Source: a virus
Lineage: Duplodnaviria > Heunggongvirae > Uroviricota > Caudoviricetes
Length of the DNA: 29,656 nt
Direction: 5' to 3' (one strand)
Virus record (IMG/VR): IMGVR_UViG_2718218453_000002
In this document: piece after piece, positions 22,562 to 23,015 of the stretch
Position numbering within the stretch: the first letter of the stretch is position 1
Layout of the letters: each line of letters starts with the position of its first letter
Made by a program: the position numbers and the translations under genes
Notes under the pieces: model-generated
What the model saw: only the letters and a program-made list of their open reading frames with translations
What the model was told of the DNA's origin: nothing
The model's database searches: none

Positions 22562-22792
22562 TTAACGCCAGCTATCGTCTTCCCAAATCTCTTGTAATAT
22601 GCTGCCTAATGTTTCTCTGTCCGCCTCTTTATCGAATCCGATAGCCTCTACACCAGTCATTGACCCTTTCTTAACGTTAACTTTTGTTGCAGGAAAAACG
22701 CATTGTACTCGATGTGTTATTTCATTCTGAAAAGCATCAATGATCTGTTGCCCTAATTTTTGCTCTTTATCCAACGTGATATTGATTCTCAT
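22562..22792 (-). CDS. DinI-family protein (Tum-like SOS-inducible module)
   Basis: 76-aa protein aligning with E. coli DinI as I recall it (MRI..T..K; IDA...E...R.Q..FP; ILQE.WE); second gene behind a LexA-box promoter. Confidence 0.75.
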   Translation of the reverse strand: MRINITLDKEQKLGQQIIDAFQNEITHRVQCVFPATKVNVKKGSMTGVEAIGFDKEADRETLGSILQEIWEDDSWR

Positions 22793-22795
22793 AAT

Positions 22796-22978
22796 CTAAT
22801 CAGCCTTATAAAAATTATCATCTTCGGTTTCGTTATTTTCGCTGTTTGCTAGGTCTGCAATGAGAGTGAGCGCGAGCTTTAAGTCTGATGGCTTGCAGTT
22901 TGCAATCAGAGATACCTCGGCAATAAATTGCACACAAGCCCACTTTTGCTGCGTTCGGCTGAAATGTTCGCCAACCAT
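22796..22978 (-). CDS. Hypothetical protein, first gene of the LexA-controlled operon
   Basis: 60-aa ORF with ATG start and strong Shine-Dalgarno (GGGAGGGA); its stop is 3 nt upstream of the DinI-like start; promoter overlapped by a perfect LexA box. Confidence 0.5.
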   Translation of the reverse strand: MVGEHFSRTQQKWACVQFIAEVSLIANCKPSDLKLALTLIADLANSENNETEDDNFYKAD

Positions 22979-22999
22979 GAAATCCCTCCCATAGGGTTA

Positions 23000-23015
23000 C
23001 TGTATATTTATACAG
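23000..23015 (-). promoter_or_regulatory. LexA operator (SOS box) overlapping a sigma70-type promoter
   Basis: CTGTATATTTATACAG is a perfect CTGT-N8-ACAG match; on the minus strand it overlaps an AT-rich -10 region, with TTGCCA as candidate -35 and the Shine-Dalgarno/ATG of the 60-aa gene just downstream. Confidence 0.6.

What the first reader, a model, noticed from the sequence alone, without database searches (positions are those of the whole stretch)
22562..23015. SOS-controlled Tum-like module: perfect LexA box driving a 60-aa ORF plus DinI-family protein
CTGTATATTTATACAG (perfect CTGT-N8-ACAG) overlaps the promoter of a two-gene minus-strand operon whose second product is DinI-like. In coliphage 186, prophage induction by DNA damage runs through a LexA-repressed promoter driving tum, whose product has a DinI-like domain and antagonises CI. 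Here the module appears split into two ORFs, and its target may be the unusual tandem-HTH CI at 27377-28237.
Basis: partly seen in the sequence, partly recalled or inferred. Interest (0 to 1): 0.5.

Follow-up and report, generated by a model that had tools for sequence, protein, structure and literature searches.

The report
SOS-controlled tumA/tumB prophage induction module
This is the known DNA-damage switch of PSP3/186-type prophages: a LexA-repressed promoter drives a small antirepressor gene (tumA) and a separate DinI-like gene (tumB), so it is real and correctly read but ordinary.

Summary
A near-consensus LexA box (TACTGTATATTTATACAGTA, 22998-23017, 19 of 20) lies 37 nt upstream of a minus-strand 60-aa ORF (22978-22796). 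A 76-aa DinI-family ORF follows (22792-22562). Phage PSP3 (AY135486) annotates the same pair as tumA and tumB. The window's TumA is 98% identical to PSP3 TumA and its CI is 98.3% identical to PSP3 CI. Lemire et al. 2011 (PMC3121763) state that PSP3 and Fels-2 have tum split by a stop codon, with the upstream half carrying the antirepressor activity. The box and promoter align with the annotated p95 promoter of phage 186. The split is an in-frame TAG, not a frameshift, and not decay: 102 of 120 listed TumA relatives are 60-61 aa and none is fused to DinI. A perfect LexA box precedes tumA in the window and all 28 loci from other enterobacterial species. Added here: a DinI-like gene follows tumA in only 8 of 29 loci, so it looks facultative. 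The window's TumB is mosaic (70% to 186, 46% to PSP3). TumA occurs with both long and short CI repressors. Low interest.

The parts
22998..23017 (-). LexA operator (SOS box), TACTGTATAAATATACAGTA on the tum strand
   Evidence: It matches the consensus at 19 of 20 positions, with 0 expected by chance. It aligns with the annotated LexA site of 186 p95. CTGT and ACAG are invariant in all 31 aligned sequences. A perfect box lies 35-41 nt upstream of the tumA start in the window and all 28 loci from other species.
23012..23041 (-). p95-type promoter: -35 TTCCCA (23041-23036), 18-nt spacer, -10 TACTGT (23017-23012). The -10 is the left half of the LexA box.
   Evidence: Assigned by alignment to the annotated p95 of 186 (TTCACA, 18 nt, TACTGT). 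CTTCnCA is a conserved island in most of the 31 aligned sequences. The generic sigma-70 scan did not call it, because TACTGT matches TATAAT at only 3 of 6 positions.
22796..22978 (-). tumA: 60-aa predicted antirepressor, homologous to the N-terminal half of 186 Tum
   Evidence: It is 98% identical to PSP3 TumA and hits phrog_1993 at E=1.1e-31, as does 186 Tum 1-70 at E=1.5e-23. The family has 208 clusters, and 102 of the 120 listed are 60-61 aa. AlphaFold predicts two helices, 8-25 and 30-50, at mean pLDDT 69.
22793..22798 (-). Junction TAG ATT: the in-frame amber stop of tumA plus one codon, directly before the tumB ATG
   Evidence: The junction is TAG ATT ATG in the window, L009, L010 and L012, and TAG TTT ATG in L011; PSP3 reads like the window. 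The tumB ATG aligns with the annotated GTG start of the truncated 186 product Tum95.5.
22562..22792 (-). tumB: 76-aa DinI-family protein
   Evidence: Pfam DinI at E=1.7e-17. 70% identical to 186 Tum 71-146 at E=8e-42. 46% identical to PSP3 TumB. E. coli DinI (1GHH) at E=4.5e-8.
22511..22550 (-). Strong hairpin 12 nt after the tumB stop. It may be a leaky terminator or a 3' stabiliser of the SOS transcript.
   Evidence: Free energy -27.2 kcal/mol, z=-3.9, and 0 of 200 shuffles fold as well. A shorter version was called terminator-like. There is no U-tract on the tum strand. In 186 a partial terminator, t95a, is annotated just downstream of tum.
27377..28237 (+). cI: 286-aa immunity repressor with two CI-type HTH domains and a CI C-terminal domain; the presumed target of TumA
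   Evidence: Pfam Phage_CI_repr twice plus Phage_CI_C. 98.3% identical to PSP3 CI. Among close relatives the variation sits in residues 1-100, while 101-286 are conserved.

Best explanation
This is the SOS induction module of a PSP3-immunity, 186-like (Peduoviridae, Eganvirus-type) prophage of E. coli.

In the lysogen, host LexA binds the operator at 22998-23017. That operator contains the -10 hexamer of a p95-type promoter, so tumA-tumB is silent. DNA damage activates RecA, LexA cleaves itself, and the promoter fires.

TumA, a 60-aa two-helix protein, then binds the prophage CI repressor and stops it binding its operators, as full-length Tum does in 186. This derepresses the early lytic promoter. 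The action is sequestration, not cleavage, so it is reversible and depends on dose.

TumB is a separate DinI-family protein, probably translated by coupling to the tumA stop 3 nt upstream. It most likely acts on RecA filaments to tune the strength or duration of the SOS signal, and is not needed for antirepression.

Status of the steps:
- Shown here: the sequence elements, their homology and their conservation.
- Taken from the literature: that Tum sequesters CI in 186, and that the upstream PSP3 gene carries the antirepressor activity.
- Inferred: LexA binding at this site, the TumA-CI contact (probably within CI residues 101-286), and the role of TumB.
For: 1. **Box and promoter.** The LexA box matches the consensus at 19 of 20 positions with 0 expected. 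It is collinear with the annotated 186 p95: identical -10 TACTGT, an 18-nt spacer, and -35 TTCCCA against TTCACA.
2. **Phylogenetic footprint.** CTGT and ACAG are invariant in all 31 aligned sequences. The box and the -35 hexamer are the main conserved islands (with a short TATCA motif further upstream) in otherwise diverged upstream DNA.
3. **Identity with PSP3.** PSP3 annotates the same genes as tumA ('UV induction of prophage') and tumB ('similar to dinI and 3' end of 186 tum').
[quoted passage not shown] PMC7708051: p95-tum alone confers UV derepression of pR, by sequestering CI. PMC12055606: deleting tum, or a lexA(Ind-) allele, abolishes mitomycin C induction of a P2-like E. coli prophage.
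5. **Homology.** TumA and the N-terminal half of 186 Tum share phrog_1993, and hhalign gives E=1.2e-4. TumB is 70% identical to the 186 Tum C-terminal half.
6. **Pairing with CI.** TumA at 98% or more is confined to phages with this CI type. It occurs next to both long and short CI genes, which share residues of about 100-286. TumA identity tracks CI 101-175 best, rho 0.76.
7. **DinI partner optional.** A DinI-like gene follows tumA in only 8 of 29 loci, and tumB has been exchanged by recombination.
Against: - No experiment exists on this exact element.
- The PSP3 result is reported only as a personal communication cited second-hand. The primary paper, Bunny et al. 2002, was not held.
- TumA against 186 Tum gives no BLASTP alignment and only 55% hhalign probability. 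The homology rests on a shared PHROG profile and on position.
- The generic promoter scan does not call the promoter.
- The correlation between TumA and CI identity is confounded by shared ancestry.
- The AlphaFold model of TumA has only moderate confidence.
Confidence: 0.88

Rival explanations
1. The module is a pseudogenised tum: a nonsense mutation broke a single 186-type gene, and the prophage is no longer SOS-inducible through it.
For: The two ORFs are in one frame, separated only by TAG ATT. Joined, they would give a 138-aa protein, close to the 146 aa of 186 Tum.
Against: 102 of the 120 listed TumA relatives are 60-61 aa and none carries a DinI domain. The longer ones are upstream mis-calls. 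TumA ends at the equivalent position (59-61 aa) in 28 of 29 loci, across about 15 genera. Deposited phage genomes carry the split form: PSP3, SEN1, SW9, SI22, Midge and RCIP0057. TumA often stands with no DinI gene at all. The literature assigns antirepressor activity to the upstream half.
Confidence: 0.03
2. TumA and TumB work together as a two-subunit antirepressor, the split equivalent of full-length Tum, and both are required to inactivate CI.
For: The genes are adjacent, probably translationally coupled, and fused in 186.
Against: A DinI-like gene follows tumA in only 8 of 29 loci. The window pairs a PSP3-type TumA with a 186-type TumB: 70% identical to 186 and 46% to PSP3, with a recombination break near 22753. 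Of the 80 E. coli genomes matching the 751-base module query, only 26 hold it over at least 80% of its length. The PSP3 report assigns activity to the upstream gene. In Gifsy prophages, non-polar dinI deletions had no significant effect on induction.
Confidence: 0.07
3. Low-level readthrough of the in-frame TAG makes a minor full-length TumA-TumB fusion that is the true 186-like effector or a regulatory isoform.
For: The in-frame TAG ATT ATG junction is shared with PSP3 and with L009, L010 and L012 (TAG TTT ATG in L011). The stop is followed by A, a weaker termination context in E. coli (general knowledge, not tested).
Against: The frame relation is not conserved in more distant relatives that have both genes: L029 has a 2-nt spacer and L033 a 13-nt spacer. 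The stop codon varies among TAG, TAA and TGA across the family. Most relatives have no DinI gene downstream.
Confidence: 0.02

Closest known systems
tumA/tumB of Salmonella phage PSP3 (GenBank AY135486; also noted for Fels-2)
   Same: Same gene order after the replication gene A. Same promoter and LexA box, and the same in-frame TAG ATT ATG junction. TumA is 98% identical and CI 98.3% identical.
   Different: The window's TumB is only 46% identical to PSP3 TumB and 70% identical to the 186 Tum C-terminal half, so the DinI gene has been swapped by recombination. The host is E. coli, not Salmonella.
Tum antirepressor and p95 SOS operon of coliphage 186
   Same: A LexA-repressed promoter with the -10 inside the SOS box. 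The position, downstream of gene A, is the same. The N-terminal half belongs to the same PHROG family as TumA and the C-terminal half is a DinI domain. 186 also has an annotated internal start (Tum95.5, GTG) that aligns with the tumB ATG.
   Different: In 186 the two halves are one 146-aa polypeptide with a 36-nt linker segment that is absent here. TumA is not detectably similar by pairwise BLASTP. 186 CI is 192 aa with one HTH and about 30% identical. 186 has orf97 downstream, whereas here there is a 69-aa PSP3 gp37-like ORF.
LexA-controlled dinI-antirepressor operons of Gifsy-1/2/3 prophages (GfoA, GftA, GfhA)
   Same: A LexA box drives an operon that holds a DinI homologue and a small antirepressor. 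The antirepressor binds, and does not cleave, the prophage repressor (PMC3121763).
   Different: The gene order is reversed, with dinI first. The antirepressors and repressors belong to other families and the phages are lambdoid.
E. coli DinI (PDB 1GHH)
   Same: TumB aligns end to end, including the acidic C-terminal ILQE-WE-D-W helix.
   Different: TumB is phage-encoded and sits in an induction operon. Its effect on RecA is untested.

Membership tests
LexA (SOS) operator of Enterobacteriaceae | A 20-bp palindrome TACTGT(AT)4ACAGTA with invariant CTGT-N8-ACAG | tested here: met
   19 of 20 positions match, with 0 expected in shuffles.
LexA (SOS) operator of Enterobacteriaceae | Overlaps the core promoter, so that bound LexA occludes RNA polymerase | tested here: met
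   The -10 TACTGT is the left half of the box, by alignment with the annotated p95 of 186. It is conserved in position in the window and all 28 loci from other species.
LexA (SOS) operator of Enterobacteriaceae | Physical binding by LexA and derepression after DNA damage | not testable with these tools
   Needs EMSA or footprinting, or a reporter assay in lexA(Ind-) and lexA(Def) hosts.
Tum / TumA antirepressor of 186-like phages | Sequence homology to the N-terminal half of 186 Tum | tested here: met
   BLASTP finds nothing. The shared profile does: phrog_1993 at E=1.1e-31 for TumA and E=1.5e-23 for 186 Tum 1-70. hhalign gives E=1.2e-4 over 32 columns. TumA is 98% identical to the named PSP3 TumA.
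Tum / TumA antirepressor of 186-like phages | Located downstream of replication gene A, in a phage with a 186-type CI/CII/Apl switch | tested here: met
   Gene A at 23092-25314 matches Pfam Phage_GPA at E=8.5e-130. CII (CP76) and CI domains are present. The gene order is that of PSP3 and vB_EcoM-613R3.
Tum / TumA antirepressor of 186-like phages | Binds CI and prevents operator binding; required for SOS induction | not testable with these tools
   Known for 186 Tum and reported for PSP3 TumA only through the literature. Here there is only co-occurrence.
DinI family (PF06183) | Full-length match to the DinI profile, including the acidic C-terminal helix | tested here: met
   Pfam E=1.7e-17, 63.9 bits against a cut-off of 24.2. 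PDB 1GHH at E=4.5e-8 over residues 1-75.
DinI family (PF06183) | Binds RecA filaments and modulates co-protease activity | not testable with these tools
   Needs a RecA filament binding assay or a LexA/UmuD cleavage assay.

The most novel reading that the evidence does not exclude
The stand-alone, LexA-controlled 60-aa TumA may be the ancestral and general form of this antirepressor across Enterobacterales, with the DinI gene a swappable accessory and the fused 186 Tum a derived special case. TumA would then recognise the CI segment shared by the long tandem-HTH and short repressors (residues of about 101-286, most likely the HTH at 101-175). One nearly invariant TumA could in that case inactivate CI proteins of different immunity specificity and cross-induce co-resident prophages. 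The evidence is comparative only.
Probability: 0.35. Interest if true: 0.35.

Novelty: already known. Interest (0 to 1): 0.1.

Why it matters
It explains how this prophage senses DNA damage: through a LexA-controlled antirepressor, not through RecA-stimulated repressor cleavage. It therefore predicts reversible, dose-dependent induction. The practical value is annotation. In the listed RefSeq E. coli matches tumA is labelled 'hypothetical protein', and 84 of 5426 complete genomes carry it. Naming it would mark these prophages as SOS-inducible. It adds no new principle.

Tried and rejected
- **Pseudogene or frameshift idea.** Rejected: the stop is in frame and the length is conserved.
- **Pairwise BLASTP of TumA against 186 Tum.** It gave nothing. 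Homology needed profiles.
- **Programmed readthrough of the TAG.** The frame relation is not conserved in L029 and L033.
- **Second CTGT-N8-ACAG at 28499-28514.** It lies inside the DUF2511 coding sequence, has a G/A-rich spacer, and is absent from Midge, SW9 and RCIP0057. Taken as chance.
- **Generic promoter scan.** It missed the p95-type promoter and called only an internal site within tumB.
- **Terminator between gene A and the promoter.** No significant fold.
- **PDB sequence search with the TumA profile.** No credible hit. A fold search on a 60-residue helical hairpin at pLDDT 69 was judged uninformative and was not run.
- **PADLOC on TumA, TumB and the neighbouring cargo genes.** Nothing except one weak ZorB/MotB-like hit.
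- **Primary papers.** Bunny et al. 2002 and Lamont et al. 1989 are not held.
- **'tumA tumB PSP3' literature search.** It returned only unrelated papers.
- **Link to E. coli HS.** Its P2-like prophage DuoHS has published tum-deletion data, but E. coli HS did not appear among the listed matches (60 of 84 shown), so that experiment was not shown to apply to this module type.

Full report
**What is in the sequence**

On the minus strand, just after the stop of the replication gene A (23092-25314; Pfam Phage_GPA, E=8.5e-130), the region reads in this order:
- -35 hexamer TTCCCA (23041-23036), then an 18-nt spacer.
- -10 hexamer TACTGT (23017-23012).
- The 20-mer TACTGTATAAATATACAGTA (23017-22998).
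- A GGGAGGG ribosome-binding site.
- A 60-codon ORF (22978-22796) ending in TAG, then one codon (ATT).
- A 76-codon ORF (22792-22562).

The 20-mer matches the enterobacterial LexA consensus at 19 of 20 positions. No shuffle of the window gave a match even with 3 mismatches allowed. The second ORF is a full-length DinI-family protein: Pfam E=1.7e-17 and E. coli DinI 1GHH at E=4.5e-8. The one refinement is that the two ORFs share a reading frame, so the split is an in-frame amber codon and not a frameshift.

**What it is**

The window is a 186/PSP3-like (Peduoviridae) prophage of E. coli. The 751-base region is 99.7% identical to phage vB_EcoM-613R3 and about 80% identical to Salmonella phage PSP3.

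The PSP3 record (AY135486) annotates the same two genes:
- tumA: 'similar to 5' end 186 tum; UV induction of prophage'.
- tumB: 'similar to dinI and 3' end of 186 tum'.

The window's TumA differs from PSP3 TumA at one residue. The CI at 27377-28237 is 98.3% identical to PSP3 CI.

Aligned with phage 186, the promoter region is collinear with the annotated p95 promoter and LexA site. 186 has -35 TTCACA, 18 nt, and -10 TACTGT inside the box. The tumB ATG aligns with the GTG start of the annotated truncated 186 product Tum95.5. So 186 is itself annotated as making a DinI-only product.

**Published knowledge**

- Lemire et al. 2011 (PMC3121763) state that Tum binds its repressor and prevents operator binding, and that its second half resembles DinI.
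[quoted passage not shown] This is a personal communication from G. E. Christie, cited through Bunny et al. 2002.
- PMC7708051 shows that a p95-tum module alone gives UV derepression of the 186 switch, by sequestering CI.
- PMC12055606 shows that deleting tum, or a lexA(Ind-) allele, blocks mitomycin C induction of a P2-like E. coli prophage.

**Tests of homology and of the pseudogene alternative**

TumB is 70% identical to 186 Tum residues 71-146 (E=8e-42).

TumA gives no BLASTP alignment with 186 Tum. Profiles do connect them:
- TumA hits phrog_1993 at E=1.1e-31.
- 186 Tum 1-70 hits phrog_1993 at E=1.5e-23.
- hhalign of a 36-member TumA alignment against 186 Tum gives E=1.2e-4 over 32 columns.

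A search of 5.8 billion proteins found 208 TumA clusters. Of the 120 listed, 102 are 60-61 aa and none has a DinI domain. The ten longest (74-93 aa) are gene calls started too far upstream, reading through the LexA box, for example as ...LLYKYTV.... The 60-aa gene is a conserved independent gene, not a fragment.

**Comparative anatomy**

Twenty-eight loci from different species, in about 15 enterobacterial genera, were fetched.
- A perfect CTGT-N8-ACAG lies 35-41 nt upstream of the tumA start in the window and all 28 loci.
- In the alignment of upstream regions, which adds 186 and PSP3, the box half-sites are invariant in all 31 sequences. The box and the -35 CTTCnCA are the main conserved islands, together with a short TATCA motif further upstream.
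- It is the only such box in most of the 14-kb loci.
- A DinI-like gene directly follows tumA in only 8 of 29 loci: the window, L009-L012, L021 (truncated), L029 and L033. In several others tumA is followed directly by a 67-aa ORF and a membrane-protein-like ORF (from memory these resemble P2 tail gene X and the lysis genes; not tested), or by unrelated ORFs.
- Where both genes exist, the frame relation is not conserved: L029 has a 2-nt spacer and L033 a 13-nt spacer. This argues against functional readthrough.
- The window's TumB is closer to 186 (70%) than to PSP3 (46%), while TumA is PSP3-type. Among the 80 E. coli genomes that match the 751-base query, only 26 hold it over at least 80% of its length. 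Many matches stop near 22753, at the conserved 5' end of tumB.

The DinI gene therefore looks like a facultative cassette that recombines independently.

**The target**

TumA at 98% identity or more occurs in exactly the seven distinct phages whose CI is at least 73% identical to the window's (ten records, three of them RefSeq duplicates). Among these CIs the variation sits in the extra N-terminal HTH (residues 1-100), while residues 101-286 are nearly invariant.

In the wider set, tumA lies next to long CIs (278-290 aa) and, in four loci, next to short 186-like CIs (about 190 aa) that match only residues of about 100-286. TumA identity correlates best with CI 101-175 (rho 0.76), then 176-286 (0.66), and least with 1-100 (0.48). 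This is confounded by shared ancestry and is only a hint that TumA contacts the part shared with 186 CI.

AlphaFold models TumA as two helices (8-25 and 30-50) with floppy, acidic ends, at pLDDT 69. No solved structure is related.

**Operon end**

A hairpin of -27 kcal/mol (z=-3.9) lies 12 nt after the tumB stop. It has no U-tract on the tum strand. 186 has an annotated partial terminator (t95a) just after tum, with read-through into orf97. Whether the 69-aa gp37-like ORF (22362-22153, phrog_11386) belongs to the SOS transcript is open.

**Verdict**

Novelty: already known (the PSP3 tumA/tumB arrangement). The comparative points added here are modest refinements: the LexA box is universal, the DinI partner is facultative and mosaic, and TumA is compatible with long and short CI. 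They are not a new kind of system. Interest 0.1.

Noticed in passing
window 23066-23086 (minus strand), between the gene A stop and the -35 hexamer: The block ATCCATATCATGCACATACAG is almost unchanged in 186, PSP3 and many of the genome loci, while its flanks diverge. A shorter TATCA core persists in most of the 31 aligned sequences. It is not a LexA box and forms no significant hairpin. Its function is unknown; it could be an upstream promoter element or a regulator site.
   Followed up: partly
window about 22753, within the 5' end of tumB: This is a recombination breakpoint. Many E. coli genomes share tumA, the promoter and the end of gene A at 98-100% identity, but carry a different DinI gene from this point on. 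The conserved AATATCACGTTGGATAAAGA stretch may serve as the crossover site.
   Followed up: partly
window 22511-22550: The strong hairpin after tumB has no U-tail on the tum strand, but on the plus strand it is followed by TTATTATGTTT. It may act mainly as a terminator for plus-strand transcription coming from the 143-aa gene at 21654-22085.
   Followed up: partly
window 28499-28514: A second perfect CTGT-N8-ACAG (CTGTTTGGAAAGACAG) lies inside the DUF2511 gene between cI and int. It is present in PSP3 but absent in Midge, SW9 and RCIP0057, so it is most likely chance.
   Followed up: yes
window 19426-22362: This is a cargo region between the portal gene and tumB, which from memory corresponds to the variable cargo region of P2-like phages (not tested). 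It holds five ORFs of unknown function: 249, 275, 92, 143 and 69 aa, all in PHROG families with no annotation. The 249-aa protein has only a weak ZorB/MotB-like PADLOC hit (E=3e-4). It may hold a defence or moron cassette.
   Followed up: partly
window 27377-28237: CI carries two CI-type HTH domains. Among close relatives the first (residues 1-100) is the variable one, at 48-50% identity in some relatives whose remaining sequence is 84-89% identical. This suggests that the first HTH sets immunity specificity, while the second HTH and the C-terminal domain are shared.
   Followed up: partly
L011, L012, L029, L032, L033, L034 (downstream of tumA or tumB): A conserved ORF of about 85-110 aa (...YQVVYRGKTLEYYxPGGWVFFQRPK...GGGYWLGRTYDG...) often follows the tum genes in other species. 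It is absent from the window and its function is unknown.
   Followed up: no
RefSeq E. coli genomes (hits H106-H162) and metagenome gene calls P0001, P0002, P0010 and others: tumA is annotated as 'hypothetical protein' in the listed E. coli matches. Some metagenome gene calls start too far upstream and translate the LexA box itself.
   Followed up: yes
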